Positions 6,934-55,052 of a stretch of DNA of 64,000 nt are shown here, one piece after another. The notes under the pieces were generated by a model. It was given only the letters and a program-made list of their open reading frames with translations. It did no database searches and was not told the origin of the DNA. Every line of letters starts with the position of its first letter. The stretch's first letter is position 1. The DNA comes from Armatimonadota bacterium (GTDB lineage Bacteria > Armatimonadota > SYMT01). The stretch spans positions 191,305 through 255,304 of the forward strand of contig JBKBRF010000001.1 of NCBI GenBank assembly GCA_046292385.1, written 5' to 3'. Made by a program: the position numbers and the translations under genes.

Positions 6934-7017
6934 TCCGAACCCTCCGTGAGCGGATGCTCCTGCTGCTCTGGAAACAGCCGTCGAGCTGTAGCACGGCGGG
7001 TCAGCACTCCGGCGCGG

Positions 7018-7115
7018 CCTAACCCCCCAAACCCCCTTCCCTGAAGTGGAAGGGGGAGTAGCAGCATCACACCCGTAGCTTCCCTCTCCTCTCAGGAGAG
7101 GGACCGACGGTGAGG
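7018..7115. repeat. Pair of CCCTCTCC/[12 protein letters not shown] REP-like hairpins
   Basis: CCCCCTTCC-n-GGAAGGGGG and CCCTCTCCT-n-AGGAGAGGG...GGTGAGG; related to copies at 21238 and 29532. Confidence 0.65.
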
Positions 7116-7454
7116 CCCCGTGAGCAGGAGCCGCCGCCGCACTTCTCCTGGCCGCGGGTGACCGGGCGGGTCAGCGACAACTCTTACTCTTGCTCCTGCT
7201 CGCTGGCGACTCTCGCTCTCCGGCACGTCCTCGCCGGGAGCGGGTAGCATTCCCGACGGCGGGGCTTCAAGGACCCGGCTGTAGACCTCGCCGGGAGCAC
7301 CCTGTACGGCACTGCGAGGGATCGACCTCTCGGCCCGAGTTTCTCTCCAACCCTCTGTCGCTCCGTCTCTCCGTCCCCGAAGGGCGGGGACATGGAAGCG
7401 GGTGAGATAATGAGGAAAGCGCCCGCGGCCGTTCGCGGGCCTGGTGCCACGACC

Positions 7455-9518
7455 ATGCAGCGCTCCTTCCACTCGATCTACTCCCACGGCTTCGTCCGCG
7501 CGGCGGTCTGCATCCCACGGGTCACCGTGGCCGACCCGTACTTCAACGTGGACCGCACGCTCGACCTGGCCCGGGAGGTCTCCGCCCGCCACGGGGCGGT
7601 GGCGCTCTTCCCCGAGCTCGGCCTCTCCGCTTATTCGAACGAGGACCTGTTCCAGCAGGACGCGCTGCTCGACGCCTGCCTGGCGGCGCTGGCGCGGGTG
7701 GTGGAGGAGAGCCGCGGTCTCACCCCGGTGCTGCTCGTCGGAGCGCCGCTGCGGTTCGAGGGGAAGCTCTTCAACTGCGCCGTGGTGATCTACCGGGGGC
7801 GAGTGCTCGGCGTGGTGCCGAAGTCGTACCTGCCGAACTACCGTGAGTTCTACGAAAAGCGGCAGTTCACGTCCGGCCGGGATGCGGTGGCGCGCGAGGT
7901 GACCCTGCTGGGGCAGCAGGTGCCGTTCGGCAGCGACCTGCTCTTCGAGGACGAGACGATCCCCGGGTTCGTGCTGCACGTGGAGATCTGCGAGGATGTC
8001 TGGACGCCGATCCCGCCCAGCTCCTACGCCGCGCTGGCGGGGGCGACCGTGCTGGCGAACCTCTCCGCCAGCAACATCACGGTCGGCAAGGCGGAGTGGC
8101 GGCACGCCCTCTGTGCCTCGCAGTCCGGCAAGTGCCTCGCCGCCTATCTCTACTCTGCCGCCGGTCCGGGCGAGTCGACCACCGACCTGGCGTGGGACGG
8201 CCACGCGATGATCTACGAGAACGGCGAGGAGCTGGCGAGCTCCGAGCGCTTCGCGCGGGAGCCGCAGGTGATCTTCGCCGACATCGACCTGGAGCGGCTG
8301 CGCCAGGAGCGGATGCGGATGACCAGCTTCCACGACTGCGCGGGGGAGCACCGGGAGCGCCTGCAGCGGGTGCGCCGCGTTCCGTTTCGCTTCGAGCTGC
8401 CGGCTGACCCGGTCCCGCTCCTCCGGAGTGTTCCTCGCTTCCCCTACGTGCCGAGCGATCCCCGCGTGCTCGACCAGCGCTGCTACGAGGCGTACAACAT
8501 CCAGATCCACGGGTTGATGAAGCGTCTCGCCGCGACCGGTGTCCAGCGGGTGGTGATCGGTGTCTCGGGCGGCCTCGATTCGACGCAGGCGCTCATCGTC
8601 GCGGCGAAGACGATGGACCGGCTGGGGCTACCGCGCACGAATATCCTCGCCTACACGATGCCGGGCTTTGCCACCACCGAGCACACGCTGAAGAACGCGC
8701 ACCGGCTGATGCGGGCGCTCGGCGTCACCGGGGAGGAGATCGACATCCGGCCTTCCTGCCGGCAGATGCTGGCGGATCTCGGTCACCCGTTCTCCAAGGG
8801 AGATCCGGTCTACGACATCACCTTCGAGAACGTCCAGGCCGGCGAGCGAACCTCCCACCTCTTCCGGCTCGCCAACTTCCACCACGGGTTGGTGCTGGGG
8901 ACCGGGGACCTGAGTGAGCAGGCACTCGGGTGGGCGACCTACGGCGTCGGCGATCAGATGTCGCACTACAACGTCAACACCTCCGTCCCCAAGACGCTGA
9001 TCCAGCAGCTCATCCGCTGGGTGGCGCAGACGGACGAGCTGGGGAGTGAGGCGAGCGAGGTGCTGCGGTCGATTCTCGCGACGGAGATCTCGCCCGAGCT
9101 GGTCCCCGGCCGTGAGGGAGACGAGGGTCCCGCCCAGAGCACCGAGGCGAAGATCGGCCCGTACGAGCTCCAGGACTTCAACCTCTACTACGTCAGCCGG
9201 TTCGGGTTCCGGCCGAGCAAAGTCGCCTTCCTGGCGCTGCACGCGTGGGGCGAGCGGGACCGAGGCGCCTGGCCGTCGCTGCTCCCGGAGGAGCGGCGAC
9301 GCGAGTACGATCTCCCCACTATCAAGCACTGGCTGGAGGTCTTCCTCTACCGCTTCTTCCAGATCAGCCAGTTCAAGCGCAGCGCCATGCCGAACGGCCC
9401 GAAGGTCGGCTCCGGCGGCTCCCTCTCCCCCCGCGGCGACTGGCGTGCGCCCAGCGACTCCGACGCCACCATCTGGCTCGAGGAGCTCAAAGCCAACGTC
9501 CCGGATCTTGAGGGATGA
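7455..9518 (+). CDS. nadE: Glutamine-dependent NAD+ synthetase
   Basis: N-terminal nitrilase domain ([22 protein letters not shown]) plus synthetase domain ([24 protein letters not shown]); start could be 7392 or 7410. Confidence 0.95.
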
Positions 9519-9834
9519 GGGATGAATGCCGCACCTACCGCTTGCGGCGGCGCTTGGCTCGCCGGGCAGAGGGTTCTCTCGAGGCCGCAGCGGCTACTCG
9601 CGAAGCGTGAGACAGGCAGTTCCATCTCCTTATCCCCATCACATCCCCTTATCTCCTTTTCTTACACTGCTCCGGTTTGTGGAAGATGCCGAGTTGGGAG
9701 ATGTCCCAGGGGAGCCTGCTTCTCGTACGAATCCGCCACCCCTCGCAGCCCGGTACACGGGAGACCATGACAGAGAGGGCGCCGCCTCCGGGTGGAAGGG
9801 CGCCCTCTACTCGAATCAGTTCCGCCTGGCCGGA

Positions 9835-10296
9835 TTAGATCGGCGGCGGCGGCGGCGGAGTGCTGTCGTCCTGCGGACCGCCGGCGGCAACCGTTACGGA
9901 TGCCTTCTTAGTGGGTCGCACGTTCCCGCCGTCGGACTCCAGGCCCACGAAGATGTTGGCCACCGTCTTCTTCCGCTTGCTGTTCGCCGGGATGGCGACC
10001 TGGCCGGTGTAGAGGCCGGCGCTGCTGCGGGTGAGGGTGGAGGCGGGGCCGGAGCCGCTCACTCCTTTGAGGCTCGCCCGGGCACTCACGGTGATGTTTT
10101 GGGCGTTCGCTTCCTTCACGCGCACCGTGATATCGACCATGCCACCCTGCGACGGGAGCCGCTTGGGCGTGACGGTCACGCGATTAATCTTCGGGCCGCG
10201 CTTAGGAGCGGCGAACACGGAGGTCGCCAGGCAGCCCGCGGACACTACTAACGCGGCGGCGACTGCCGTAGCCGCCAGCAGAGGACGCTTCATCAT
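9835..10296 (-). CDS. Secreted beta-rich protein with C-terminal poly-Pro (paralog 1)
   Basis: Signal peptide MMKRPLLAATAVAAAL...VFA; GGAG upstream; ends DDSTPPPPPPI. Confidence 0.75.
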   Translation of the reverse strand: MMKRPLLAATAVAAALVVSAGCLATSVFAAPKRGPKINRVTVTPKRLPSQGGMVDITVRVKEANAQNITVSARASLKGVSGSGPASTLTRSSAGLYTGQVAIPANSKRKKTVANIFVGLESDGGNVRPTKKASVTVAAGGPQDDSTPPPPPPI

Positions 10297-10467
10297 TCTG
10301 GTCAGGTCTCCCGGGGGAAGCGGGGCTTCCGGAGTAGTGCGGAGAGGGTCCGGTAGAGGAGAGGCTTCAGTATTCAGACGACAATACGCCTCCGAATGCC
10401 TCCCGGATCTAATGTCTATAAGATGCCTGTCGGTCGCCGCGAGTTCCGGCCGCATGCCAGGCAAGCG

Positions 10468-10914
10468 CTAATTGCTTGGCGGCGGCGGGGGCGAGCTGTC
10501 ATTCCATGGCAGCACCTTGATGGTGCCGACCCGGCGCTGAACGGGCACACCGTTCTCCGCGGTAGTGACGTACACGTACACAAAACCCTTCACGGTCCGC
10601 CGCGACGAGTTGACCGGCACCCGGAGAGTTCCCTGGAAGAACCGGCCGCTCGGCTGGAGAGCAGCGGTGGGGCCCGCGATTCCGGGCAGGCTGACCTGCC
10701 CCTCTACCTGGTCGACGGTGACGCCGCTGGCGTTCACCTTGACGCGGACCAGCAGCTCGCGGCCGTCTCCCGGAACTTTCCCGGGTTTCAGCGTCTTCGC
10801 CGTCACCGTGACTCCCGTCCGCCGGCCCTTGGGAGCGGCCCCGGCGACTGCCGTCAGGGAGCCGCAGAGCAGCAGGGCGGTAAGCGCGGTGACGAATGGG
10901 ACGAGTCGACGCAT
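10468..10914 (-). CDS. Secreted beta-rich protein with C-terminal poly-Pro (paralog 2)
   Basis: Signal peptide MRRLVPFVTALTALLL...; ends NDSSPPPPPSN; aligns by eye with the neighbouring gene. Confidence 0.75.
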   Translation of the reverse strand: MRRLVPFVTALTALLLCGSLTAVAGAAPKGRRTGVTVTAKTLKPGKVPGDGRELLVRVKVNASGVTVDQVEGQVSLPGIAGPTAALQPSGRFFQGTLRVPVNSSRRTVKGFVYVYVTTAENGVPVQRRVGTIKVLPWNDSSPPPPPSN

Positions 10915-11120
10915 GGATGCTCTCGCTAACACAGCAGACACCCCGCTTGGTTCTGCGTCGAATGAGACAACTCCTCCTATGCTCCCGCGGGCAATGATAT
11001 TTCTCCCCCGGATGAGCGCCGCGGACATAAAAACGCGGAGGCGCAAAGCTGGCGTCAGCCGGTAGAGCCGGTGCCGCCGCTTCGCGCCTCCGCGTTCGTA
11101 CGGAGGTGCAGACCGTGGAG

Positions 11121-11732
11121 CTACTGCGCGTCGGAGAGCTTCTTCGCCACCGCGTTCCAGTTCACCGTGTTCCACCAGGCCTTCAGGTAGTCCGGCCGGC
11201 GGTTGCGGTAGTCGACGTAGTAGGCGTGCTCCCACACGTCGACCCCCAGGATCGGCGTCTGGCCGTTCATCAGCGGGCTGTCCTGGTTGGCGGTGCTGAT
11301 CACCTTCAGGCTGCCGCCGTCCAGCACCAGCCACGCCCAGCCGGAGCCGAACCGCTTGGCCCCGGCATCGTTGATGGCGCTCTGCAGCTGTTCCAGCCCG
11401 CCGAATGCGGAGTTGATCGCGTCCGCCAGCGCGCCGGAGGGCTGACCGCCGCCGTTGGGGCCCATGATCTCCCAGAAGAGGGTGTGGTTGGCGTGGCCGC
11501 CGCCGTTGTTGATCACCGCCTGGCGGATGTTCTCCGGCACCGACTGGATGTTCCCGAGGATCTCCTCGATGCTCTGATTCTGGAGCTGCGGCTGGTCCTT
11601 CAGCGCGGCGTTCAGGTTGGTGACGTACGCCGCGTGGTGCTTGTCGTGATGGAGCTGCATCGTCTCCTCGCTGATGTGGGGCGCGAGGGCGTCGTACGCG
11701 TACGGCAGCGGGGGCACTTGGAATTCAGGCAT
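11121..11732 (-). CDS. sodA: Superoxide dismutase, Mn-type signature
   Basis: [44 protein letters not shown]. Confidence 0.96.
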
Positions 11733-11944
11733 GCGTTCCTCCGAGGGTCAGTCGAACGAATGGGAAAGCTGGTCGGCGCTCCGCAGCCCTGCGGAGCGAG
11801 CTGGAAAGGCGGGCAAGGGAGCCGGTCCGAGACCGGAGCTCGCCCCGGCGCGCCCTCGTAAGGATACCTTAACCGCCGGGATACCGCATGCCAAACCCGC
11901 CGCGCCGGAAGCGTGCTCGGGCTGGTAGGGAGGTATAGCGAAGG

Positions 11945-11950
11945 TATAAT
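11945..11950 (+). promoter_or_regulatory. Candidate -10 box for rlmN
   Basis: Perfect TATAAT 40 nt upstream of the ATG in very GC-rich DNA; no clear -35. Confidence 0.45.
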
Positions 11951-11990
11951 GGCGAGGCAGGCAGGGGCGGCTGGAGGACGGAGAGGATCG

Positions 11991-13127
11991 ATGGAGCTGC
12001 CGGTAGTGGAGCAGGCGGGAGGGCCGGCGGCAGGACCGCCGCTGGTGGGACGGACGCGCGCGGAGCTGGAAGCGCTGGCCGTGGAGTTGGGGCAGCCGGC
12101 CTACCGCGGGCGGCAGGTGGCGCGCTGGCTCTACGCTCGCGGCGTGCGCTCCGTCGAGGAGATGACCGACCTCCCGGCCGCCTTCCGCGCGCGCCTGGCC
12201 GAAGCCGCGCCGGTCGGCCGCTCGGAGATCGTCCGCCGCCAGGCTTCCCGGGACGGCACGGTCAAAGTGCTGCTTCGGTACCCGGACGAACGGGAGATCG
12301 AGACGGTGGTGCTGCCGTATCCGGATCGCGTCTCCGTTTGCATCTCCAGCCAGGTCGGCTGCCCGGTCGGCTGCGTCTTCTGCGCCACCGCCACCATGGG
12401 CTTCGGGCGCAACCTGACGCCGGGCGAGCTGCTGGACCAGGTGCTCACCGCCCGGGAAGAGGCGCCCGGCGGGCGGCTCACCCACGTGGTGGTGATGGGG
12501 ATGGGCGAGCCGCTGCTGAACTACGAGAGCCTGGTGAAGGCGCTGCGGCTGATGCACGAGGAAGTAGGGCTCTCCTACCGGCACCTCACCGTCTCCACCT
12601 CCGGCCACGTGCCCGGGATCCGGCGGCTGGCGGAGGAGGGCCTGCCGGTCACGCTGGCGCTCTCCCTCCACGCGCCGAACGACCCGCTCCGGGCGGAGCT
12701 CATCCCGCTCTCCCGCAAGTGGGGGATCGACGATGTGATGGGGGCGGTCCGCGACTATCAGGAGCGCACCGGCCGCCGCGTGACGCTGGAGTACCTGCTG
12801 CTGGCGCGCGTGAACGACGAGCCGGAGCACGCGGAGCAGCTCGCCCGCCTCTGCCGCGGCATGATCACGCACGTCAACCTGATCCCGTGGAATCCGGCCG
12901 ACACCTTCACCCGGTTCGAAGCGCCCTCCGGCGCGCGCGTCCGCGCCTTCCGGTCGATCCTGGAGGGGCACGGCGTCACCGTGACGCAGCGGGTGGAGCG
13001 CGGCCAGGACATCGCCGCCGCCTGCGGGCAGCTCGCCGTCAAAGCCCGTCGGGAAGGGGGCGAGGAGATCGCCGTCGCCCCCCGCACCTTCGAAGACGTG
13101 TCGCCCGCGCTAGCAGAGAGCCCGTGA
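11991..13127 (+). CDS. rlmN: 23S rRNA m2A2503/tRNA methyltransferase (radical SAM)
   Basis: CISSQVGCPVGCVFC, MGMGEP, SLHA, NLIPWN, DIAAACGQL. Confidence 0.95.
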   Translation: MELPVVEQAGGPAAGPPLVGRTRAELEALAVELGQPAYRGRQVARWLYARGVRSVEEMTDLPAAFRARLAEAAPVGRSEIVRRQASRDGTVKVLLRYPDEREIETVVLPYPDRVSVCISSQVGCPVGCVFCATATMGFGRNLTPGELLDQVLTAREEAPGGRLTHVVVMGMGEPLLNYESLVKALRLMHEEVGLSYRHLTVSTSGHVPGIRRLAEEGLPVTLALSLHAPNDPLRAELIPLSRKWGIDDVMGAVRDYQERTGRRVTLEYLLLARVNDEPEHAEQLARLCRGMITHVNLIPWNPADTFTRFEAPSGARVRAFRSILEGHGVTVTQRVERGQDIAAACGQLAVKARREGGEEIAVAPRTFEDVSPALAESP

Positions 13128-13249
13128 GCGCGACCTTGCGCCGTTCCTGGGACAGGGCCAATCCGGCAGCTCCGCTAGAGCAACCTGAACTCCTGCTAGA
13201 ATACTCTGTGGCGCCGATTGACGGGACGGGGTCACGCCCGGTAGATCAC

Positions 13250-16739: not shown

Positions 16740-16779
16740 GGGTATCCGAATCCGCTGGTAGGAGCTTCGCGGCCGGGCG

Positions 16780-19948: not shown

Positions 19949-21139
19949 ATGATGGTGCAGTTCGCCCGCCGGATGATGACGGAGCCGGATCCCCGGCTCC
20001 TCTGGAAAATCGGCTACAACTTCGGCTTCAAGGGGATGCTCTCCGTCAACCGCTTCAAGAAGCGGCTCAAGCAGGGGATCCACTTCCCGCCGTTCCTCTT
20101 CATCTCGATCATCAATAGCTGCCAGCTCCGCTGCCAGGGCTGCTGGGTCGACGTCGCCTCCCCCCGCAAGATGATCACGCTGGAGGAGATGAACCGGATC
20201 ATCAACGACGCCAAGCGCCACGGGAACAGCTTCTTCGGCATCCTGGGCGGCGAGCCGTTCCTCCACCCGCAGCTTCTCGACATCCTGGCGGCCCACCCGG
20301 ACTGCTACTTCCAGATCTTCACCAACGGCCAGCTCATCACCGACGAGGTGGCGAAGGAGCTGCGCCGTCTCGGGAATGCGAGCCCGCTCATCAGCATCGA
20401 GGGCACCGAGATCGTCAGCGACGCGCGCCGCGGCCGGCTCAACGTGCTGAACAAGACGCTGGAAGGGCTGGCGAACTGCCGCAAGCACCGCCTGATCACC
20501 GGTGTGGCGACCAGCGTCTGCCAGACCAACATCGACCTGGTGAGCGAGTCGTGGCTCCGTAAGCTGATCGATCTTGGAGCCCACTACGCCTGGTTCCACA
20601 CCTATCGGGTAGTCGGCCCCGTTCCGCACTCGGAGCTGGCGCTCTCGCCGGAGCAGGTGCTGCAGGTGCGGCGGTTCGTCGTCGAGATGCGCAAGAAGCT
20701 CCCGATCGCGATCGTCGACGCCTACTGGGACGACAAGGGCGAAGCGCTCTGCCCCATGGCGACCGGCGTGAGCCACCACATCGGCCCCGGCGGCGACATC
20801 GAGCCGTGCCCGATCATCCAGTTCGCCCGGGAGAACATCCGGGACCGGGAGAGCCTCTACGAGACGCTCACCGGCTCCGAGTTCCTGCAGGACTTCCGCC
20901 GCACCGCCGCGAAGGCGACCCGCGGGTGCATCGTGCTGGAGCGCCCGGACCTGGTGCAGGAGCTGGTCGCCCGCCACGGCGCGCGAGACACCACCCAGCG
21001 CGGCACCGCGCTGGCGGAGATGGCGGCGCTGGAGCCGCGCACCAGCCAGCACAACCCCGGCAACGAGATTCCGGAAGACCACTGGGCCTACCGGTTCGCA
21101 AAGAAGCACTGGTTCTTCGGATTCGGAGCCTACACCTAA
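19949..21139 (+). CDS. Radical SAM protein with SPASM/Twitch-like C-terminus
   Basis: CQLRCQGC, LGGEP, FTNG, ISIEG, C-terminal CPMA...HIGPGGDIEPCP...GC. Confidence 0.9.
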   Translation: MMVQFARRMMTEPDPRLLWKIGYNFGFKGMLSVNRFKKRLKQGIHFPPFLFISIINSCQLRCQGCWVDVASPRKMITLEEMNRIINDAKRHGNSFFGILGGEPFLHPQLLDILAAHPDCYFQIFTNGQLITDEVAKELRRLGNASPLISIEGTEIVSDARRGRLNVLNKTLEGLANCRKHRLITGVATSVCQTNIDLVSESWLRKLIDLGAHYAWFHTYRVVGPVPHSELALSPEQVLQVRRFVVEMRKKLPIAIVDAYWDDKGEALCPMATGVSHHIGPGGDIEPCPIIQFARENIRDRESLYETLTGSEFLQDFRRTAAKATRGCIVLERPDLVQELVARHGARDTTQRGTALAEMAALEPRTSQHNPGNEIPEDHWAYRFAKKHWFFGFGAYT

Positions 21140-21220
21140 AAGCTAAAGGCTAAAGGCTAAAGGCTAAAGGCTAAAGGCTAAAGGCTAAAGGCTAAAGGCT
21201 AAAGGCTAAAGGCTAAAGGC
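21136..21220 (+). repeat. Tandem heptamer array CTAAAAG(CTAAAGG)11
   Basis: 11 perfect units plus 1 variant; the first unit contains the radical SAM TAA. Confidence 0.97.
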
Positions 21221-21237
21221 CTGCCTAACACCGATAG

Positions 21238-21336
21238 CTCCCCTCTCCTCGCAGGAGAGGGGCCGGGGGTGAGGCCGCGGTCGAATGCCTGGCTCTCGTG
21301 CACGCTGTCGGTCATCCTGAACGGAGTGAAGGATCT
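21238..21336. repeat. REP-like elements (CCCTCTCC hairpin family and GTCATCCTGA...GAAGGATCT type)
   Basis: 21253-21279 is the exact reverse complement of 29532-29558; GTCATCCTGAACGGAGTGAAGGATCT at 21311-21336. Confidence 0.7.
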
Positions 21337-29701: not shown

Positions 29702-29823
29702 AGCTGGCGAGGCCGCGCCGGTGTACCGCGGGTCGCCAGCGAGCAAGAGCAGGAGCAGGAGCAGGGCTCTCCGTTCACGGAGGGTTGGGATTCATCCCTC
29801 ATCCCTCATCGTTCATCCCTCGT
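29702..29823 (-). repeat. Dispersed ~90-bp element plus (GGGATGA)-type heptamer array
   Basis: Reverse complement aligns with 36075-36169, 7181-7235 and 6934-6968. Confidence 0.8.
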
Positions 29824-29830: not shown

Positions 29831-30361
29831 ATGGCACGCGAACCCCGTCCTCCCACCGATACCCTGGTCGTCGCCGCCATCGTAGGGGCGCACGGCATCC
29901 GCGGCGAGGTGAAGCTCCGCCCGCTGACCGAGTTTCCCGAGCGTCTCACGAAGGCTCCGGAGCTGCGGCTGCGGTTCCCTAATGGAGAAGAGGCGCGCTA
30001 CCGCCGGCTCGGCACGCGCTGGCACCAGCAGCAGCTCCTCGCTCGGCTGGAGGGCGTCGACAACCGCAGCGACGCCCAGGCGCTGGTCGGGGCAGAGGTC
30101 GTGATCGACGTCTCCGAGGCGCAGCCGCTGCCGGAAGGGCGTTACTACCATCACCAGCTTCTCGGCCTGCGGGTGGTCACCCCGGACGGCGAAGAGCTGG
30201 GGCGCGTGCGGAACATCATCGAGGGCGCTTCGAACGACGTCTACGTCGCCGGCAGGTACATGGTCCCCGCTACCCACGACGCGGTGCTCCGGATCGACCC
30301 GGAGGAAGGGGTGATCGTGGTGCGCAGCCGGGAGTACCTGGAGGGCGAGGAGGTGCGCTAG
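29831..30361 (+). CDS. rimM: Ribosome maturation factor RimM
   Basis: GAHGIRGEVK, LPEGRYY, LLGLRV, LGRV, ASNDVYV. Confidence 0.93.
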   Translation: MAREPRPPTDTLVVAAIVGAHGIRGEVKLRPLTEFPERLTKAPELRLRFPNGEEARYRRLGTRWHQQQLLARLEGVDNRSDAQALVGAEVVIDVSEAQPLPEGRYYHHQLLGLRVVTPDGEELGRVRNIIEGASNDVYVAGRYMVPATHDAVLRIDPEEGVIVVRSREYLEGEEVR

Positions 30362-30379
30362 GCCCTCCGTGCCCAGTCA

Positions 30380-30463
30380 CTCCTACTCCTACTCGTTCTC
30401 GTACTCCTACTCAAAGAGCCCTCCGATCTTGAGAAGGATTACGAGAAGGAGAAGGAGTAAGAG
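30380..30463. repeat. Inverted pair of hexamer arrays (CTCCTA / GAGAAG-GAGTAA)
   Basis: CTCCTACTCCTACTCGTTCTCGTACTCCTACTC, 18-nt spacer, GAGAAGGATTACGAGAAGGAGAAGGAGTAAGAG. Confidence 0.75.
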
Positions 30464-30522
30464 GCCGAACCGTCTGTTCCGCCAGGTTCTGCCGTCCACC
30501 ATTCGCGTCTGATCGCAACGCA

Positions 30523-36040: not shown

Positions 36041-36222
36041 CTAAAGGCTAAAGGCAGAAGGCTAAAGGCTAAAGTCCGAACCGTCCGTTAGCGGGAGGTC
36101 TTGCTCCTGCTACTACTCTTGCTCTTGCTCGCTGGCGAGCTTCGATTCTCCGGCGCGTCCTCGCCAGCTTAGGCCGTGCGGTGGCGGAGCTCGTTCTCTT
36201 TCTCCTTCTCGTTCTCTTTCTC
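36041..36222 (+). repeat. (CTAAAGG)-type array, then dispersed element, then hexamer array
   Basis: 5 heptamer units at 36041-36075, TCCGAACC...TTGCTCGCTGGCGA...CCGGCGCGTCCTCGCCAGCT to 36169, CTC(G/T/C)TT hexamers at 36190-36222. Confidence 0.85.
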
Positions 36223-47122: not shown

Positions 47123-47247
47123 GCCGCGTCATTCGGATCCCGGCGCCGGCCGCGCCGCCGGGCGGCGCAGCACCTCACGCTGGAGGGCCTCCCCAGTCCG
47201 GAAGGGCGTGCGTCAGAGAGAGTCCGCGTGTTAAGGACGGGTGTGTG

Positions 47248-49431: not shown

Positions 49432-49550
49432 CGGGCGCCGGGAACCGATGCGACGACTTGCAACGTGATTGGGTCTGCGGGATACCCCGCGAGTCCGCGG
49501 CGGCCAGGCATGGCCCGGGCGCCCGGCTCCGGCCCGAGAAGTAGGGGACG

Positions 49551-51416
49551 TTGATGCGCGACAGAGAGCATACACTGGCACGACGGCGGCCGCGCGGCGC
49601 TGCTCGGCGGGGCTTCACGATCATCGAGATGATCGTGGTCATTGCCATCACCGCACTCCTGATGACGATCCTGTTCGTTCCGCTCTCCCGCACGCTCGAC
49701 CTGGTCTCGCGCGGCAACGCCCGCGTGACGAGTCAGGACAGCGTGCGGGCGGCGATGCGGACGGTGCGCCGGGACCTCTCCAACGCGATGCAGGTCTTCC
49801 CGCCGCGCCCCATTCACATCTGGGGCTACCGGGACTGGACCTACGACAACCGGAAAGACCGTCCGGAGCCGCTGCCCAACAGCCCTTCGGAGCGGTACCT
49901 GGTGGAGAACGGGGTCTTCGCCTTCCGTTTGCCGAAGCACCAGTACCACTGCCCGCGCTTCGATCACACCATCCTCCCCACGGAGGCGGATCCGAACCTG
50001 GCGCTCGACACCTGCCCGCGCCACCTCGGCTCTCCCATCGAGATGCGCCCGCTCTCGCCGCTGGAGCCGGACGATAAGATCGTCGCCTACTTCCTGGCGC
50101 TGAAAGATCCGACCGTGACAGACGGGCAGGGCCTCCCGCAGTACCGGAATATCGCGCTCTTCAGCAACGTCGCCACCAACACGCTGAACACCTACACGCT
50201 CTACCGGCTGGAGTTCGACCCCCGGCTGCCGCAGTTCGCCCGCTGGACCATCGACGCAGACGGAGATGGTCAGGTCGACGATCCGAATCCGAACTTCTTC
50301 TACGAGACCCAGAACGTGACGGGTCTGGTCGGGGGCCAGCAGGTGACCCTGCCGGCGTATCAGTGGTGGCGGGACGCGTCTCGCGTGGTAGTGAACCAGC
50401 AGCAGTCCGACATGGTGAAGTGGCTGGCGAGCGGAGCGAAGTGGCTGCCGCACCCGATTACCACCATGGGCCCGGCACCGGTCTCCGATGCCGACCTGCT
50501 GCCGAACCGGAACGTCGGCCTCTTCAACCAGGACGGCTCCACGCTGCCGGCGTCGATCCCCTCCGCGGAATACCTGGCCGAGTTCGGGCACTGGCTGGGG
50601 CTGGAGAATGACGGCCAGGGACTGATCCCGGCCACCTGGGTGATCAAGCCGGACGGTCAGACCGGGACCTATCTCCGCGGGCCTCGCATCCAGATCTTCG
50701 ACTTCAGCCTGGCTCCGGCGCAGCAGCTAGTCTTCGACTCTGCCGATGCCACGCGCCGCAACCGGCTGGTCTCCTATGACTCGATGACCGGGCGCGTCAC
50801 CTTCGCGATGCGGCGGTTCAACTACGGCACCAACGATCCGGTGCTGATGGAGCACTATTCGGCTCCGGCGCCGAGTGCCGCCAATCTCTACACGGTCGAC
50901 CTCACGCTGGACCAGGTCAGCGACCCGAACAACATGCCGAGCAGTTTCGGCGCCGCGAAGGTGTGGGAGGGGAACAATGCGCTGCGCCAGGGAACATCGC
51001 TGATCGTCCCCGGGTCAGAAGAGGTGCAGCTCACCTTCCAGCCGGCGAGCGGCCCGCGCGAGGTGGAGATACTGCGACGGGTGGGGTGGACCGGCCTCGG
51101 CAACGGGGTAGACCGGTACGTGGCGCAGGCAGACCTGGCGCCGGACGAGTACACCATCGACTACCGCACCGGCATCATCGGACTCGCCGACCGCGATCCC
51201 AACCGCTGGAGCGGGGTGGCCCCGGGCGGCCAGCGCCAGCTCCTGGTGAAGCACCGCTTCCAGACCAACCGGCCGGGCGACGTGGTGAAGGCGAGCTTCG
51301 TCACCCAGGAAGCGGCCCTGGCGAACCTGGGTCTGGTGGAGTTCACCCGCGCCAAGGGTGAGAAGCTGCCGTTCGAAGTCTCCGAGCGGATCGTTATCCG
51401 GAACCTCAAGCGATGA
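49551..51416 (+). CDS. Giant minor pilin-like protein (~620 aa, PilW/GspJ position)
   Basis: RRG|FTIIEMIVVIAITALLM; helix ...RRDLSNA. Confidence 0.85.
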   Translation: MMRDREHTLARRRPRGAARRGFTIIEMIVVIAITALLMTILFVPLSRTLDLVSRGNARVTSQDSVRAAMRTVRRDLSNAMQVFPPRPIHIWGYRDWTYDNRKDRPEPLPNSPSERYLVENGVFAFRLPKHQYHCPRFDHTILPTEADPNLALDTCPRHLGSPIEMRPLSPLEPDDKIVAYFLALKDPTVTDGQGLPQYRNIALFSNVATNTLNTYTLYRLEFDPRLPQFARWTIDADGDGQVDDPNPNFFYETQNVTGLVGGQQVTLPAYQWWRDASRVVVNQQQSDMVKWLASGAKWLPHPITTMGPAPVSDADLLPNRNVGLFNQDGSTLPASIPSAEYLAEFGHWLGLENDGQGLIPATWVIKPDGQTGTYLRGPRIQIFDFSLAPAQQLVFDSADATRRNRLVSYDSMTGRVTFAMRRFNYGTNDPVLMEHYSAPAPSAANLYTVDLTLDQVSDPNNMPSSFGAAKVWEGNNALRQGTSLIVPGSEEVQLTFQPASGPREVEILRRVGWTGLGNGVDRYVAQADLAPDEYTIDYRTGIIGLADRDPNRWSGVAPGGQRQLLVKHRFQTNRPGDVVKASFVTQEAALANLGLVEFTRAKGEKLPFEVSERIVIRNLKR

Positions 51417-54400
51417 TGAGCGCCATGCGAACTAGAGCCAGGACCGGGTGGGCGAGGGGCCGGCGCGGGCAGACGATCGTCGTGGCGATCGCCATCCTGT
51501 TTCTCCTCATCCTCGTCGGCTCGATCTTCATCACGACGGTGGTGCAGAACCTCCGCCGGGTTACTGCCCAGGGGGAGCGGAACGACGCGCTCACGCTGGC
51601 GCTCGCCGGCCTGCGCTACGCGGGACAGCAGTTTGCCGCCAGCCCCGCGGGGGCCGACTGGCGACCGACGCCGACCGAGGCACTGTGGCGCACCCCGGTG
51701 CCGCCGGCGACGATCTTTCGTGACCAGCTTCCCCCCAATACGCCGGGGGACCTGAACGGCGACCAGGTGCTCGACGCCAACGAGATCCGCCTGCTCGACC
51801 CGGACTACAAGTGGCTGAGCGACGACGGCACCTACCGCCGTCCCTTCGTTCGCGTTCCGACGGGCCGCGGCCGGTTCCTGGTGCGCGTGACTTACATTCC
51901 GCGCTACGAGGCGTCCGGTCCGAACGCCGTCGAGTTCGCGCAGAACTCCGGCCTGATCCACGTGGAAGCGGTGGGCCGCCCCGGCGAGCTCGATCCGAAC
52001 GACCCGACCTTCTACACCTCCGACCCGACCGGCAACACGCAGGGTGGAGAAGTGGTGGGGCCGTATCGCAAGGTCGACGCCTACGTGCCGATGGGCCTGG
52101 TGGACCAGCTCTGGTGGGTGACCAACCGCACCAGGGAGCGGGGCCCGGCGACCCTGGGCGTGCCCGGCTTCCGGGACGGCCTGGCGCGTGGGGTCGAGTT
52201 CCCGGCGGTGTGGGAGGGCGGCATCCGCAGCGATACCGATCTCCAGCTCCAGGGCCAGAACAACGTGCGGCTCTACCCGTCCCGCGGGGAGGGGGTCTTC
52301 GTGAAGGGCGAGCTCCGGCTTAGCCCCCGCGGCAATACCGCGCAGCCGCGCCCGCAGCTCGAGCTGCAGGTGCTGGAGGACAGCGGAGAGACAGCTGGGA
52401 CCGCCCCGGATGGAAATCCGATTATTCCGTCGGAGAACTTCGACGATAATCCGGGTAACGACTCGCTCATCATCCGGGTCGATGCGGACCCGCTGATCGC
52501 GAACAATGGTCTCGCCTCGGTCCTGCTCTACACCCCGGGCGGGAGCCAGCGGCGCGTGCTGCTGGACGAGCGGCACCTGCGGAGCGATCCGGAGCTGGCC
52601 GCGCGCAGCACCCGCATGCAGCCGCCGCCGGACCTGACCGCGGGCGACCCGACCACCGGGATGAACCGCTGGCTGCTCCTCACCCGGGAGACCGGCGGCA
52701 TGCTGAGCATTCCGCAGCAGGGCGAAGCGACGCGCCTGGTGCGGGCCGGCTGGTATGGCCTGGTCGATCAGAACCTGTCGCCGACGATCCGCGCCCAGGG
52801 GCTCTACCTCGATAACCACGGCGACATCCAGTATCCCGGCGACCGCTCCGCAGTGAAGGACGAGTGGCTGCGGCGCGGCAACTCCGACACCCGGAACCGC
52901 GGCTGGCTGGGCGACTACTACGTGCCGAGCGTGGAAGAGGGCGGCACCCTCCACCCGATCGCGGAGGTGGCGCTGGTCGACGTGCATTCGAACCCGAACG
53001 ACCCGAGCTCGCCGCGCGTGCCGAAGATCCGGATCACACGCTACGACCTGGATCAGCGGCACATGAACCTCCAGGGGGCCGTGGGCCGGCAGCGGTTGTT
53101 CTACCGCCACGACGGCACCCAGCTCGTTCCCGTCGGCTACACCCGCGAGTTCGACTATCCCTCCAACGGCGTCTTCTTCGCCGAGGGGAGCATCCGCCTC
53201 CGCGGGCGGGTGGGAACCGAGACCGACCCGAGGCAGCTCACCATCGTCTCCGGCGGCACCATCTATGTCGAAGGCAACATCGTCAAGCCGCACCGCGCCT
53301 CCTTCGTGGGGCTGCTGGCGCGCGACTACGTGACGCTCAACCCGACCGCCTTCACGCGGGTCCAGCCGGGCAGCGACATCCTGGTCGAGGCGGACACCTT
53401 CGACACGGACGGCCGCCCGGTGGGCTACCACTTCACGGTGCAGCAGGGGAGCGACCTCGACTTCTCCTTCCAGTCCGCCGAGCCGCTCGGCAGCGGCATG
53501 ATCCACGTGAAGCACTCCGCCGCTTACGAGGCGGACGGCTCCCAGACCGCCGTCACGCTCAACCTGCCGCGGCTGGCGCCGAACGCCGACCAGAATGGCT
53601 GGCCCGCGTGGAACACCGATCGGTACGACTTCGGCGCAAACCGTCCGCCGGGCGATCCGCCGGCGGGGCTGACGCCGTACACCGGCGTATCGCAGCTCTT
53701 CTACCTGTTCCGGAAGTTCTCGCCGGGTGAATTCCGCGACCAATCCGCGGAGGACCCCCAGAGCTACGCCGAGTCTAACTTCCAGACGCCGCTCGGCACG
53801 CAGACGCCGCGCTTCGAGCGCAAGACGTTCTTCCTGCCGCAGCTTGGCTCCGGCGGCGCCGTGCGGCCTGGAATGGACGCGACCTACCGGCTGGTGGTCG
53901 GCTCCCAGGACGACGGCTCCGGCAACCCGGTGACGCAGCCGAACGGGCAGCCCTACTGGCTTTCCCGGATCGCGGTGCTGCCGCAGGACCGGCCGCTGCC
54001 GATCAAGATCGAGGCGGTGATGTACGCGCAGAACGGCTCCTGGTTCGTGATCCCGCCGCCGTACTTCAACGACAACCCGACGGACACGCGGGCGGAGTTC
54101 GCTTCTACGGGTCGCCGCCCGATCGGCACCTTCCCGCGGAACACGGACCATTACCCGTTCTACAACGAGCCGCTGAACATCGAGGTGCAGATCAACGGGT
54201 CGATGACGGAGAACATGCCGGCCGCGCCGAGCGAGCAGGCCGCGTGGGTGAACCGGACCTGGATCCACGATCCGGGCTACGACCCGGGCGTCTTCCCGCT
54301 CCAGGGCCGCCCGCCGTTCTCCCCGCGGCTGCGCTACCGCTACGACTCCGATCTGAAGCGGATGGTCCGGGCCCGCATCCCGCGGCTCGGCCAGGAGTTC

Positions 54401-54586
54401 ATCGTGTGGACGGCGCCCACCGCGCCGCCGGTGAACGGAATGATGACGGTGGATCAGGTCATCGCCTTCGCCCGCGGCAACGATCCGAACACGAACCAGC
54501 CGATCAACAGCTACGTGGAGTTCCTGCCGGTGCTGCCGCGGATGCCCGCCGGCACGCTGGTCTACGAGGGCAATCCGCAGCAGTAA
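51413..54586 (+). CDS. Giant PilX/GspK-like minor pilin (1057 aa)
   Basis: RRG|QTIVVAIAILFLLILVG lacks Glu5; A..LA.AGL.YA motif; FFAEGSIRLRG...LTIVSGGTIYVEGNI. Confidence 0.8.
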   Translation: MMSAMRTRARTGWARGRRGQTIVVAIAILFLLILVGSIFITTVVQNLRRVTAQGERNDALTLALAGLRYAGQQFAASPAGADWRPTPTEALWRTPVPPATIFRDQLPPNTPGDLNGDQVLDANEIRLLDPDYKWLSDDGTYRRPFVRVPTGRGRFLVRVTYIPRYEASGPNAVEFAQNSGLIHVEAVGRPGELDPNDPTFYTSDPTGNTQGGEVVGPYRKVDAYVPMGLVDQLWWVTNRTRERGPATLGVPGFRDGLARGVEFPAVWEGGIRSDTDLQLQGQNNVRLYPSRGEGVFVKGELRLSPRGNTAQPRPQLELQVLEDSGETAGTAPDGNPIIPSENFDDNPGNDSLIIRVDADPLIANNGLASVLLYTPGGSQRRVLLDERHLRSDPELAARSTRMQPPPDLTAGDPTTGMNRWLLLTRETGGMLSIPQQGEATRLVRAGWYGLVDQNLSPTIRAQGLYLDNHGDIQYPGDRSAVKDEWLRRGNSDTRNRGWLGDYYVPSVEEGGTLHPIAEVALVDVHSNPNDPSSPRVPKIRITRYDLDQRHMNLQGAVGRQRLFYRHDGTQLVPVGYTREFDYPSNGVFFAEGSIRLRGRVGTETDPRQLTIVSGGTIYVEGNIVKPHRASFVGLLARDYVTLNPTAFTRVQPGSDILVEADTFDTDGRPVGYHFTVQQGSDLDFSFQSAEPLGSGMIHVKHSAAYEADGSQTAVTLNLPRLAPNADQNGWPAWNTDRYDFGANRPPGDPPAGLTPYTGVSQLFYLFRKFSPGEFRDQSAEDPQSYAESNFQTPLGTQTPRFERKTFFLPQLGSGGAVRPGMDATYRLVVGSQDDGSGNPVTQPNGQPYWLSRIAVLPQDRPLPIKIEAVMYAQNGSWFVIPPPYFNDNPTDTRAEFASTGRRPIGTFPRNTDHYPFYNEPLNIEVQINGSMTENMPAAPSEQAAWVNRTWIHDPGYDPGVFPLQGRPPFSPRLRYRYDSDLKRMVRARIPRLGQEFIVWTAPTAPPVNGMMTVDQVIAFARGNDPNTNQPINSYVEFLPVLPRMPAGTLVYEGNPQQ

Positions 54587-55052
54587 AGGCAGAAGTAAGA
54601 AGGCAGAAGGCAGAAGGACCGTGACGGAGACTGCTACGTGATCCCAGGTGGCAGTGGTGAGCGCGATCTCCACGGACGTACAAAGCGGTATGCGCTGGAG
54701 ATTATCCGGCTTTGCGGGCGCTTGCCCAGGACCAGCGTTGCGCAGGTCCTGGGCAAGCAGCTACTTCGTTCGGGAACGAATCCCGGGGCGCAGTATCGGG
54801 AAGCGCAGCGGTCCCGGACTCCGGCGGAGTTCGTGAGCAAGCTGGGAGTGGCTCTTCAGGAATTGGAAGAGACCGGGTATTGGTTGGAGTTGTTGACGGA
54901 GAGCGGCGTAGTCCCGCCCGCCGAAACCGAGCGGCTTGTCACGGAGACACGTGAGCTGACCGCCATTTTCGTCACGATAGTCCGCAGAGCGAAGGCCCGC
55001 GACTGAGCTGGTTCGGATCTTTTGCCTTCTGCCTTTTGACTTTTGCCTTTTG
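54583..55052. mobile_element. Four-helix-bundle cassette bounded by inverted heptamer arrays (mobility inferred only)
   Basis: Left GTAAAGG CAGAAGT AAGAAGG CAGAAGG CAGAAGG (54583-54617); right TCTTTTG CCTTCTG CCTTTTG ACTTTTG CCTTTTG (55018-55052); codon style differs from the flanking genes. Confidence 0.6.
54638..55006 (+). CDS. Four helix bundle protein (23S rRNA IVS protein/Avd-like family)
   Basis: LP...LGKQLLRSGT..GAQYREA.R.R..AEFVSKL..ALQELEET.YWLELL; start uncertain. Confidence 0.88.
   Translation: MIPGGSGERDLHGRTKRYALEIIRLCGRLPRTSVAQVLGKQLLRSGTNPGAQYREAQRSRTPAEFVSKLGVALQELEETGYWLELLTESGVVPPAETERLVTETRELTAIFVTIVRRAKARD

What the first reader, a model, noticed from the sequence alone, without database searches (positions are those of the whole stretch)
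6934..55017. Conserved TCCGAACC motif directly abuts tandem arrays of different unit sequence
Seen: on the purine-rich strand the array is followed at once by TCCGAACC at 6934 (after GGATGAA x8), 36075 (after CTAAAGG-type x5) and 55017-55010 on the minus strand (after CAAAAGG-type x5, the four-helix cassette end). Variants are TCCCAACC at 29790-29783 on the minus strand (after GGGATGA-type units) and GCCGAACC at 30464 (after hexamers). Plain slippage would not predict one boundary motif for unrelated repeat units. Inference: the motif is a recognition, priming or insertion site linking the four-helix cassette to the gene-less arrays. The arrays at 21136 and 54583 lack a clear copy.
Basis: partly seen in the sequence, partly recalled or inferred. 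Interest (0 to 1): 0.72.

Follow-up and report, generated by a model that had tools for sequence, protein, structure and literature searches.

The report
Shared end-motif of intergenic repeat arrays
A seven-base word, CCGAACC, closes the purine-rich side of many short tandem-repeat arrays in this one bacterial genome, because arrays and word are copied around together as parts of small gene-less elements related to a little four-helix-bundle gene cassette.

Summary
Observation confirmed, and it holds genome-wide. In this uncultured Armatimonadota genome, CCGAACC is the most enriched 7-mer at array ends: 132 of 1418 flanks against 3.6 expected. It lies directly 3' of the array in 70 of 1882 sites, against 3 of 1882 in the opposite orientation. 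It is on the purine-rich strand in 123 of 130 cases.

It is neither a slippage product nor one MITE. It is a shared joint of several copied intergenic element families: class A (64 copies), GGTT+CCGAACC sites (58), class B (16), and composite 8-9-mer arrays. These elements lie close to gene 3' ends.

All 3 genes of one four-helix (PF05635) subfamily carry the joint; none of the other 5 does. Its arm families carry the joint on 56-60% of arrays.

The joint was found at array ends only in this genome. It was missing in sampled sister genera. Among 67 cross-phylum cassettes of the same subfamily, 2 had the word nearby; one was seen to be coding and the other was not inspected.

No reverse transcriptase was found. 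Function is not shown. The scan has seen four-helix plus heptamer cassettes before, in at least 288 genomes. The joint had not been noted.

The parts
6878..6933 (+). Purine-rich arm, GGATGAA x8. The stop codon TGA of the upstream gene (crude call 5741-6883) lies in its first unit.
6934..6941 (+). Joint TCCGAACC
6942..7010 (+). Inner module: CTCCGTGAGCGGA, a short CTCCTG-type run and a tail. It resembles the copy at G000:C3:270087.
29703..29765 (-). Class A right-hand module read on the minus strand: hairpin GCTGGCGA..TCGCCAGC plus CTCCTG/CTCTTG hexamers
29783..29790 (-). Variant joint TCCCAACC
29792..29821 (-). Purine-rich arm, GGGATGA-type x4.3, ending 10 nt before the rimM start at 29831
30379..30463 (+). 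Inverted hexamer arms: ACTCCT x5.7, an 18-nt loop, then GAGAAG/GGAGTA
30464..30471 (+). Variant joint GCCGAACC. Here it sits on the outer side of the purine arm.
36041..36074 (+). Purine-rich arm, units CTAAAGG CTAAAGG CAGAAGG CTAAAGG CTAAAG
36075..36082 (+). Joint TCCGAACC
36083..36168 (+). Class A inner module: GTCCGTTAGCGGGAGG, CTCTTG/CTCCTG hexamers (36099-36130), hairpin GCTGGCGAG..CTCGCCAGC (36131-36168)
36190..36222 (+). Further pyrimidine hexamer array, CTCGTT x5.5
54586..54617 (+). Left arm of the four-helix cassette, AAGGCAG x4.6. It starts at the TAA stop (54584-54586) of the upstream gene and has no joint.
54638..55006 (+). Four-helix-bundle gene, 122 aa, PF05635 23S_rRNA_IVP (E 3.2e-14)
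55010..55017 (-). Joint TCCGAACC on the strand antisense to the gene
55019..55052 (-). Right arm, GCAAAAG/GCAGAAG-type x4.9 on the minus strand. It ends 13 nt before the ATG (55066) of the next gene.
21136..21220 (+). CTAAAGG x12.1 array without a joint; an array of this unit family that lacks the joint

Best explanation
SHOWN. (T)CCGAACC is a fixed joint at the 3' end of the purine-rich arm in a set of dispersed, copied intergenic elements. These were found only in this Armatimonadota genome. The elements are mosaics of exchangeable blocks: an arm of 4-5 heptamer (or 6-, 8-, 9-mer) units, the joint, then an inner module. The inner module can be a short GC-rich segment plus pyrimidine hexamers plus a second hairpin, or an inverted copy of the arm, or a four-helix gene. 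The arm usually starts at or within 30 nt of the stop codon of a same-strand gene. The elements avoid divergent (promoter) spacers. The three cassettes of one four-helix subfamily have the same arm families and the same joint.

INFERRED. The gene-less elements are non-autonomous relatives of those cassettes. The joint is kept because it acts in cis: it is the terminal word at which the still unknown copying machinery recognises or cuts the end of the purine arm, probably on DNA rather than RNA, because orientation relative to transcription is only weakly biased. One boundary word beside unrelated repeat units is thus explained by copy-and-paste and block exchange, not by slippage in place.
For: Enrichment and polarity.
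- 132 of 1418 array flanks against 3.6 expected.
- 70 of 1882 sites against 3 of 1882 in the opposite orientation.
- 123 of 130 on the purine-rich strand.

Copy-and-paste.
- Class A has 64 copies, and similarity drops outside arm and module. At least 21 copies show 79-87% identity.
- Unit usage in the arm depends on position. At the third unit from the joint, 22 of 46 are GCAGAAG, TCAAAAG or GCAAAAG and 6 are GCTAAAG. At units -1, -2 and -4, GCTAAAG accounts for 32, 25 and 21 of 46.

Block exchange.
- The same right-hand module follows GCTAAAG or GGGATGA arms through the joint, and TAGGGTN arms through another linker.
- The joint also punctuates 8-9-mer composite arrays.

Link to the four-helix subfamily: 3 of 3 against 0 of 5, plus the arm-family figures.

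Constraint. In 64 class A copies chosen without using the motif, CCGAACC is intact in 48 (75%). That is the best-kept 7-mer outside the selection sites. The following 5' stem is intact in 58-62%, the 3' stem in 36-44% and the loop in 3-11%.

Placement.
- 45 of 57 arms start within 30 nt of a same-strand stop codon, or contain it.
- Divergent spacers hold 11 of 124 elements against 22% of spacers genome-wide. Convergent spacers hold 43 of 124 against 16%.

DNA-level hint: the motif is on the G-rich strand in 34 cases against 13.
Against: - No enzyme is identified. There is no RVT_1. The Y2_Tnp search found nothing, but its control was silent. The one RAYT-like Y1 gene examined is bracketed by a different hairpin.
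- The joint is missing from 76 of 121 arm-selected GCAGGTT-type hairpin elements. It is also missing from about 40% of arrays in the arm families that carry it.
- Its better conservation than neighbouring positions is modest (75% against 62%).
- The segment after the joint folds no better than shuffles: median z -0.25, and 9 of 89 below -1.5 against 5 of 89 in a control segment.
- The gene's orientation relative to the joint differs between cassettes. C43 and C10 have it on the sense strand 5' of the gene; the window copy has it antisense and 3' of the gene.
- The joint is not a conserved part of cross-phylum cassettes of the same subfamily (2 of 67 with the word nearby), so it cannot be a general requirement of that protein.
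- The strand bias is confounded with gene orientation (32 against 19, p 0.09).
Confidence: 0.45

Rival explanations
1. Passive relic. The joint has no function of its own. It is a piece of one ancestral element that hitch-hikes with arms and modules, and it is mixed among families by recombination in the low-complexity arrays.
For: - It was found only in this genome.
- The class A junction 20-mer has only chance hits in public collections: 1 in genome contigs and 2 in metagenome contigs, none at an array.
- The joint is absent from many members: 76 of 121 arm-selected hairpin elements.
- Variants are tolerated: TGGGACC, TGGAACC, GGGAACC, TCCAGACC.
- Sister genera use overlapping words as array units, CCCGAACA in G005 and GGGTTCR in G006. 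The joint could be a stranded single unit of such an array.
Against: - It is the best-kept unselected 7-mer in class A although copies differ by 13-21%.
- It is shared by at least seven arm types and by modules with no other similarity.
- Its polarity is strict: 70 against 3.
Confidence: 0.3
2. Small add-on element. CCGAACC is the 5' end of short mobile modules, comparable to cyanobacterial SDRs. These modules insert at the 3' end of purine-rich arrays that were already in place.
For: - Cross-phylum cassettes are compact and lack the joint, so it looks like an addition in this lineage.
- It can sit on either strand of a cassette and even on the outer side of a purine arm (window 30464).
- Several unrelated bodies all begin with it.
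Against: - Arms with the same position-specific unit pattern travel with the joint.
- The array does not continue on the far side: a direct partner is found in 1 of 89 elements against an inverted partner in 21 of 89.
- No consistent target word precedes the joint: GATGAA|T, CTAAAG|T or |C, CAGGTT|C, GGGAGA|T.
Confidence: 0.12
3. RNA signal. The elements are transcribed with the upstream gene. Purine arms give stop codons in all frames. Paired arms make RNase III-type stems as in rRNA intervening sequences, or the G-poor pyrimidine arrays act as Rho loading sites. The joint is then a processing or binding word in the RNA.
For: - Arms abut stop codons.
- There is a preference for gene 3' ends.
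- 46 of 49 GCAGGTT-type elements fold as long hairpins (z below -2, median -4.8) with the joint at the 5' side of the tip.
- The window cassette fills the whole 479-nt gap between two same-strand genes.
Against: - Orientation relative to the neighbouring genes is only 53 against 26. In co-directional spacers it is 27 against 18.
- Class A elements fold no better than shuffles (z +1.2 and +1.4).
- No Rfam family matches in the window.
- Nothing shows that the seven bases matter in RNA.
Confidence: 0.1
4. Chance or plain slippage. The motif next to arrays is a coincidence of composition.
For: Seven of the 10 exact copies in the window lie inside crude gene calls, away from arrays.
Against: - 37-fold enrichment at array flanks.
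- Pooled rate for composition-matched permutations 0.14% against 3.7%.
- GATGAATCCGAACC occurs 44 times in the genome and 0 times when read backwards.
Confidence: 0.01

Closest known systems
Four-helix-bundle (PF05635, '23S rRNA intervening sequence protein') gene cassettes bracketed by inverted heptamer arrays. Earlier notes of this scan report them in at least 288 genomes. ORF-bearing 23S rRNA IVS of Leptospira and Coxiella are recalled, not read.
   Same: - The window copy (54586-55052) is such a cassette: a PF05635 ORF between inverted arrays, wedged between two genes.
- All 8 copies in the genome are array-flanked, 7 of them by inverted arrays.
- 25 of 67 cross-phylum relatives of the subfamily have strict arrays on both sides. 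Many rows that I read carried GGATGA-type arms; a strict pattern counted 15 of 67.
   Different: - The joint CCGAACC is not a feature of that class: 2 of 67 cross-phylum loci and 2 of 25 Armatimonadota loci have the word nearby, and the three of these four that I saw were in sequence that looked coding, not at an arm.
- Here most joint-bearing elements carry no gene.
- None lies in rRNA.
REP/REPIN elements mobilised by RAYT Y1 transposases (Bertels and Rainey 2011, PMC3116915; abstract and passages seen)
   Same: - Short, very abundant extragenic repeats.
- A conserved linear word next to a GC-rich palindromic segment.
- A preference for gene 3' ends.
- A Y1 transposase gene is present in the genome.
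   Different: - The Y1 gene at C51 is bracketed by another hairpin, GAGGGGTTGAAAACCCCTC.
- The segment after the joint varies in sequence and is not unusually stable.
- REPs have no tandem-array arms.
Small dispersed repeats (SDR) embedded in heptamer tandem repeats of Nostoc (Elhai et al. 2008, Genome Res 18:1484). Only the reference entry was seen, in PMC3116915. The content is recalled; the paper itself was not held.
   Same: Very short conserved elements found at or within heptamer arrays; suspected mobility; no known enzyme.
   Different: - Here the array does not continue on the other side (1 of 89).
- The conserved part is only 7-8 nt.
- It sits at one defined end (3' of the purine strand).
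- The host is a different phylum.
Heptamer simple-sequence repeats of Xanthomonas (GGGAATC) and Nostoc (GGGGAYT) (Rehm et al. 2015, PMC4692102; passages seen)
   Same: Intergenic heptamer arrays, many as convergent inverted pairs (70 in Xcc and 75 in Xac, according to the paper).
   Different: The passages I saw describe no boundary word. They treat the arrays as SSRs and possible G-quadruplexes, not as parts of copied composite elements.
MITEs
   Same: Small, gene-less, multi-copy and dispersed. Some classes have inverted arms. A gene-bearing relative exists (the four-helix cassette).
   Different: - No transposase-bearing parent is known.
- 68 of 89 strict elements have no inverted partner arm.
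- No target-site duplication was established.
Target and cleavage-site logic of IS200/IS605 elements: a fixed 4-5-nt word abutting the left end, next to a subterminal hairpin (recalled, not read)
   Same: A short fixed word at one end of several otherwise different elements, strand polarity, and a possible bias to one replication strand (34 against 13).
   Different: No matching TnpA ends were found, the word is 7 nt long, and the hairpins are not conserved.

Membership tests
Four-helix (PF05635) cassette with inverted heptamer arms | ORF matching PF05635 above the curated cut-off | tested here: met
   Window 54638-55006: 53.5 bits against a cut-off of 33.8. There are 8 such genes in the genome.
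Four-helix (PF05635) cassette with inverted heptamer arms | Gene bracketed by inverted arrays of one short unit | tested here: met
   AAGGCAG x4.6 on the left and CTTTTGC x4.9 on the right. Seven of 8 genome copies have inverted arrays and 1 has direct arrays.
Four-helix (PF05635) cassette with inverted heptamer arms | The joint CCGAACC as a family feature | tested here: not met
   2 of 67 cross-phylum loci and 2 of 25 Armatimonadota loci have the word within 170-230 nt. The three I saw were in sequence that looked coding; L214 was not inspected.
MITE | Small, gene-less, multi-copy, dispersed, with similarity ending at the element ends | tested here: met
   Class A has 64 copies and conservation drops outside. 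At least 21 copies show 79-87% identity. There are 58 GGTT+CCGAACC sites.
MITE | Terminal inverted repeats | tested here: inconclusive
   Met for hairpin classes: 21 of 89 have an inverted partner arm, and 121 elements were found by their arms alone. Not met for classes A and B (68 of 89).
MITE | Target-site duplication and a transposase-encoding parent with the same ends | not tested
   No systematic TSD search was run. The only gene-bearing relatives carry a four-helix gene, or in one case a Y1 gene behind a variant joint.
REP/REPIN-RAYT | The RAYT gene is flanked by the same repeat | tested here: not met
   The C51 Y1 gene is flanked by GAGGGGTTGAAAACCCCTC. The C22 copy has no arrays.
REP/REPIN-RAYT | Conserved stable palindrome next to the fixed word | tested here: not met
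   Median z -0.25; 9 of 89 below -1.5 against 5 of 89 in a control segment.
Cyanobacterial SDR in heptamer arrays | Element embedded within one array, with the same units on both sides | tested here: not met
   A direct partner array within 1200 nt is found in 1 of 89.
Simple sequence repeat made in place by slippage | Array content independent of other loci, with no shared flank | tested here: not met
   There is a shared joint and position-specific unit usage across 46 arms.
Integron attC | Core GTTRRRY / RYYYAAC and linkage to an integrase or cassette array (consensus recalled) | tested here: not met
   The reverse complement GTTCGGA breaks the recalled consensus at two positions. The elements are dispersed singly. 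Integrase linkage was not tested.
Known RNA family (Rfam 15) | Match at the gathering score | tested here: not met
   0 matches in the window.

The most novel reading that the evidence does not exclude
The joint is the cis-acting recognition or cleavage word of the still unknown machinery that copies heptamer-armed four-helix cassettes. It would act at the 3' end of the purine arm on single-stranded or hairpin DNA. This genome has more than a hundred joint-bearing copies, three cognate four-helix genes and no reverse transcriptase. It would then be the first place where the ends and the polarity of these widespread cassettes can be defined and tested.
Probability: 0.2. Interest if true: 0.8.

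Novelty: new variant of a known kind. Interest (0 to 1): 0.5.

Why it matters
Heptamer arrays and the four-helix 'IVS protein' genes they bracket are widespread. My library searches found no paper that links the two or describes an array boundary word.

This genome adds three points.
- The arrays are not local slippage products. They are arms of copied, modular elements.
- These elements have a polarity, marked by a fixed word at the 3' end of the purine arm.
- One four-helix subfamily shares arm type and joint with more than a hundred gene-less elements.

If the joint is a cis site, it gives a concrete sequence to mutate, or to use as bait for the missing enzyme. If it is only a relic, the finding is still a useful description of how intergenic space is filled in a barely studied phylum. 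In that case it is of local interest only.

Tried and rejected
- Reverse-transcriptase or DGR-like priming (Avd analogy): no RVT_1 in the genome.
- IS91-type rolling-circle transposon targeting GAAC (recalled): no Y2_Tnp hit, but the control genomes were silent too, so this is uninformative.
- RAYT/REP: the Y1 gene has other flanking hairpins.
- tRNA T-arm mimicry of GGTTCGG and integron attC core: rejected by eye against recalled consensus sequences, with no tool test.
- A structured hairpin directly after the joint: a simple stem count gave 68 of 89 against 47 of 89 in a control, but energies are no better than shuffles.
- Whole class A elements as structured RNA: z +1.2 and +1.4.
- Conservation in relatives:
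  - The 14-mer junction gives 3 single hits in 40 relatives, none at an array.
  - The 106-nt class A module gives only marginal short hits.
  - AGGCAG+CGAACC in 5 family genomes is at control level. Only one site is a real array joint, G005:C2:458371, with centre GCGAACCGAACTCCC.
- Search for a comparable single boundary word in samples of G005 and G006: none as strong. The best is CGGACG, 8 of 82 flanks, 7-fold.
- Public collections: the 20-mer junction gives 1 hit in genome contigs and 2 in metagenome contigs; none lies at an array.
- My first arm-only pattern for the hairpin class was badly designed (second part) and was replaced.
- Target-site duplications and exact outer ends were not worked out.
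- Elhai et al. 2008 could not be read.

Full report
THE OBSERVATION

- GGATGAA x8 at 6878-6933 is followed at once by TCCGAACC at 6934.
- CTAAAGG-type x4.9 at 36041-36074 is followed by TCCGAACC at 36075.
- On the minus strand, a GCAAAAG-type array x4.9 (55052-55019) is followed, after one A, by TCCGAACC (55017-55010). This lies 3 nt from the stop codon of a 122-aa ORF, which is a PF05635 '23S rRNA intervening sequence protein' (E 3.2e-14).
- The variants TCCCAACC (29790-29783, minus) and GCCGAACC (30464-30471) are also there.
- The arrays at 21136 and 54586 have no copy.

The window holds 10 TCCGAACC against 2.9 expected. Seven of them lie inside my crude gene calls, away from arrays. The window alone therefore proves little.

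GENOME-WIDE TEST

The window lies in a 7.04-Mb assembly of 91 contigs with about 68% G+C. Earlier notes of this scan call the organism an uncultured Armatimonadota bacterium.

Tandem Repeats Finder gives 709 merged arrays of period 6-8 with at least 3.5 copies. There are 391 period-7 rows in 43 unit classes.
- In the 1418 outward 25-nt flanks, CCGAACC is the most frequent 7-mer: 132 flanks against 3.6 expected. Its reverse complement comes next (67). A second module word, GCTGGCG, follows (53).
- With a strict rule (24 nt directly 5', lag 6-8, at most 2 mismatches), an array precedes 70 of 1882 CCGAACC sites. It precedes 3 of 1882 in the opposite orientation. The pooled figure for 105 composition-matched permutations is 197 of 140259, and this pool includes CCGAACC itself and words overlapping it.
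- The motif follows the purine-rich strand in 123 of 130 array-linked cases.
- CCGAACC is about three times denser between genes (796 in 1.32 Mb) than in genes (1086 in 5.72 Mb). Control words are not.

WHAT THE COPIES ARE

Listing 89 strict cases shows several element types that share little more than the joint.
- Class A has 64 copies. It consists of a GCTAAAG- or GGGATGA-type arm, (T)CCGAACC, CTCCGTnnnCGGGAGG, CTCCTG/CTCTTG hexamers, and a hairpin GCTCGCTGGCGAC..CGTCCTCG. Similarity drops outside these limits. At least 21 copies are 79-87% identical to the window copy.
- Class B has 16 copies. GGGATGA or GAGTGGG-type arms are followed by the joint, TCCCGGKACGGGCAC and ACTCCT-type hexamers.
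- A hairpin class has 58 GGTT+CCGAACC sites. GCAGGTT-type arms, the joint, a short variable GC-rich centre and inverted AACCTGC arms make up the element. Of the 49 sites followed by an inverted AACCTG-type arm, 46 fold as long hairpins (z below -2, median -4.8), with the joint at the 5' side of the tip.
- Smaller classes have GACAGAGG, GGAGTGCAGAGGA or GCTAAAG inverted arms.
- The joint also punctuates composite arrays of 8-9-mers, of the form CCGAACC-tGATTCACC-(GCAGAGRAC)n-CCGAACC-..(GCCAAGAAC)n.
- It also sits inside a roughly 300-nt structured repeat that earlier agents described.

ARMS ARE COPIED, NOT GROWN IN PLACE

In 46 arms ending in AAAG plus joint, unit usage depends on position.
- GCTAAAG accounts for 32, 25 and 21 of 46 at units -1, -2 and -4.
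- At unit -3, 22 of 46 are GCAGAAG, TCAAAAG or GCAAAAG, and only 6 are GCTAAAG.

Blocks are also exchanged.
- The word CTCGCTGGCGA of the class A right-hand module occurs 119 times, and 52 of these sites have the exact joint upstream.
- Among the 48 sites with no joint-like word, I read roughly half as chance matches in coding sequence (judged by eye, not counted).
- The true modules among them carry other left joints: TGGGACC or TGGAACC after GCTAAAG arms, and a GCTGGCGGGGGCGG..GCGCC linker after TAGGGTN arms.

The joint is specific to arm families. It is found on 37 of 62 GCTAAAG, 32 of 53 GGGATGA and 14 of 25 GGATGAA arrays. It is found on 0 of 35 AATACGC, 0 of 25 ACCCTAG and 0 of 19 ACACCCT arrays.

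PLACEMENT

These figures rest on a crude gene call of my own (5176 genes, 81% coding).
- The arm side faces the 3' end of a same-strand gene in 53 of 79 elements. It faces a gene start in 26.
- Among 57 elements with a same-strand gene end within 200 nt, the stop codon lies inside the arm in 11 and within 3 nt of its start in 10. It lies 4-30 nt away in 24 and further away in 12.
- Classes A, B and the hairpin class sit in divergent spacers in 11 of 124 cases, against 22% of spacers genome-wide. They sit in convergent spacers in 43 of 124, against 16%.
- Orientation in co-directional spacers is only 27 against 18. This argues against a strictly strand-specific RNA function.
- The motif lies on the locally G-rich strand in 34 cases against 13 (p 0.003, using the 47 of 89 elements with |skew| above 0.01). 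This is confounded with gene strand, where the split is 32 against 19.

THE FOUR-HELIX LINK

The genome has 8 PF05635 genes. All are array-flanked, 7 of them by inverted arrays, and the arms start at or next to the upstream stop codon.
- Three carry the joint: the window copy, C43 and C10.
- These three form one subfamily, with 54-83% identity to each other and at most 37% to the other five. The C10 copy looks frameshifted.
- Their arms belong to the GGATGAA/GGGATGA and CTAAAGG/CAGAAGG families, the families that most often carry the joint.
- In C43 and C10 the joint is 5' of the gene on the sense strand. In the window it is 3' of the gene on the antisense strand.
- At 30464 the joint lies on the outer side of a purine arm.

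The rule is therefore '3' of a purine arm'. It is not a fixed relation to the gene or to the loop.

NOT CONSERVED ELSEWHERE

- GATGAATCCGAACC occurs 44 times in this genome and 0 times when read backwards. It occurs once each in 3 of 40 Armatimonadota relatives, never at an array.
- Sister genera of the same family do have arrays: G005 has 38 in 400 kb, G006 has 23 in 173 kb and G001 has 3 in 400 kb. CCGAACC lies in 1 of 76, 0 of 46 and 0 of 6 of their flanks. No single word dominates there.
- PF05635 genes occur in 25 of 41 genomes searched, this one included. Of 25 loci from relatives, 11 have strict arrays on both sides. Two have the word within 230 nt, in sequence that looked coding in the flanks I read.
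- Relatives of the joint-bearing subfamily were found at 72 loci in Acidobacteriota, Verrucomicrobiota, Planctomycetota, Bacteroidota and others.
  - In the 49 of 68 rows visible (the output was cut), many carry GGATGA-type arms set tightly around the gene.
  - Of 67 loci scored, 40 have a strict array upstream, 36 downstream and 25 on both sides.
  - 15 have a GGATGA-type arm by a strict pattern.
  - 2 have the word within 170 nt of a gene end. One (L204) was seen to lie in apparently coding sequence past the gene end; L214 was not inspected.
- The class A junction 20-mer has 1 match in genome contigs and 2 in metagenome contigs; none lies at an array.
- The 106-nt module has no convincing match in 40 relatives.
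- One array joint in G005 (AAGGCAG arms, centre GCGAACCGAACTCCC) may be a distant cousin.
- The tools say that records of this genome or of very near ones may be left out.

IS THE JOINT CONSTRAINED?

To avoid circularity I chose 64 class A copies by the right-hand module and the left arm only.
- CCGAACC is intact in 48 (75%). That is the highest value of any 7-column window outside the selection sites.
- The 5' stem that follows is intact in 58-62%, the 3' stem in 36-44%, the loop in 3-11% and the tail in 5-47%.

This is modest evidence for constraint. Against it:
- Only 45 of 121 arm-selected GCAGGTT-type hairpins have the exact joint, always on one strand only. Variants are GGGAACC, TGGAACC and TCGAACC.
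- The 24 nt after the joint fold no better than shuffles.

ENZYMES

- No RVT_1 was found.
- No Y2_Tnp was found, but the control was silent.
- There are five Y1_Tnp matches, two of them strong.
- The Y1 gene at C51 sits behind a stop codon, a GGGATGA arm and TCCGAGC, a one-base variant of the joint. It is bracketed by inverted GAGGGGTTGAAAACCCCTC hairpins, which are not joint-type repeats.
- Rfam gives nothing in the window.

READING

Slippage cannot explain one boundary word beside unrelated units, and it does not need to. Arm, joint and module are copied together and then reshuffled.

I take the gene-less elements to be non-autonomous relatives of the cassettes of one four-helix subfamily. 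I take the joint to be their lineage-specific terminal word, most likely kept because it acts in cis during copying (0.45).

A functionless relic is nearly as likely (0.3). An independent add-on element (0.12) and an RNA signal (0.1) remain open.

LITERATURE

- Rehm et al. 2015 (PMC4692102; passages seen) describe heptamer SSRs and inverted pairs. The passages I saw mention no boundary word.
- Bertels and Rainey 2011 (PMC3116915; abstract and passages seen) describe REPINs and RAYTs.
- Elhai et al. 2008 could not be read and is cited from memory.
- Four library searches found no paper linking PF05635 to heptamer repeats or describing such a joint. Supplements were not consulted.

Noticed in passing
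window 7075-7115 and 21240-21285: A second dispersed repeat: the palindrome CCCTCTCCTCnCAGGAGAGGG followed by CCGnnGGTGAGGCC. It lies just downstream of two array elements.
   Followed up: no
G000:C51:25920-26261 (outside the window): A Y1 transposase gene (PF01797, E 3e-23) lies behind a stop codon, a GGGATGA arm and TCCGAGC (a one-base variant of the joint). It is bracketed by inverted GAGGGGTTGAAAACCCCTC hairpins. GAGG..TTGAAA..CCTC occurs 31 times in the genome. It resembles the GCGAGGCATTGAAATACCTCGC hairpin I saw in copies of a longer repeat that carries CCGAACC, probably the structured ~300-nt repeat of earlier notes.
   Followed up: partly
G000:C10:107689-107910 (outside the window): This four-helix gene of the joint-bearing subfamily loses similarity to its closest paralogue in the last ~30 residues. 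It looks frameshifted.
   Followed up: no
L181-L248 (public MAG contigs): The same four-helix subfamily occurs in Acidobacteriota, Verrucomicrobiota, Planctomycetota and Bacteroidota. Many copies have the same GGATGAA-type arm unit, so protein subfamily and arm unit appear to travel together across phyla.
   Followed up: partly
L141-L160 (G005) and L161-L180 (G006): Sister genera have array densities like this genome's but other units. G005's commonest unit is CCCGAACA, and G006 has GGGTTCR arrays. Both words overlap the joint CCGAACC.
   Followed up: partly
G000, e.g. C4:219678, C8:144084, C88:5189: TAGGGTN-type (plant-telomere-like) heptamer arms are joined to the same class A right-hand module by a different linker, GCTGGCGGGGGCGG..GCGCC.
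   Followed up: no
window 51482-54586, 55066-60375 and 60461 onward: The four-helix cassette fills the whole gap between two very large same-strand genes (about 1030 and 1770 codons). A third gene runs off the window. Their function was not examined.
   Followed up: no
G000:C7:140096, C30:41468, C49:39839, C4:292884: Four GACAGAGG-type joint elements fall inside long ORFs of my crude gene call. Two of them lie about 1 kb from four-helix genes (C7, C49). They may be in-gene insertions or gene-call artefacts.
   Followed up: no
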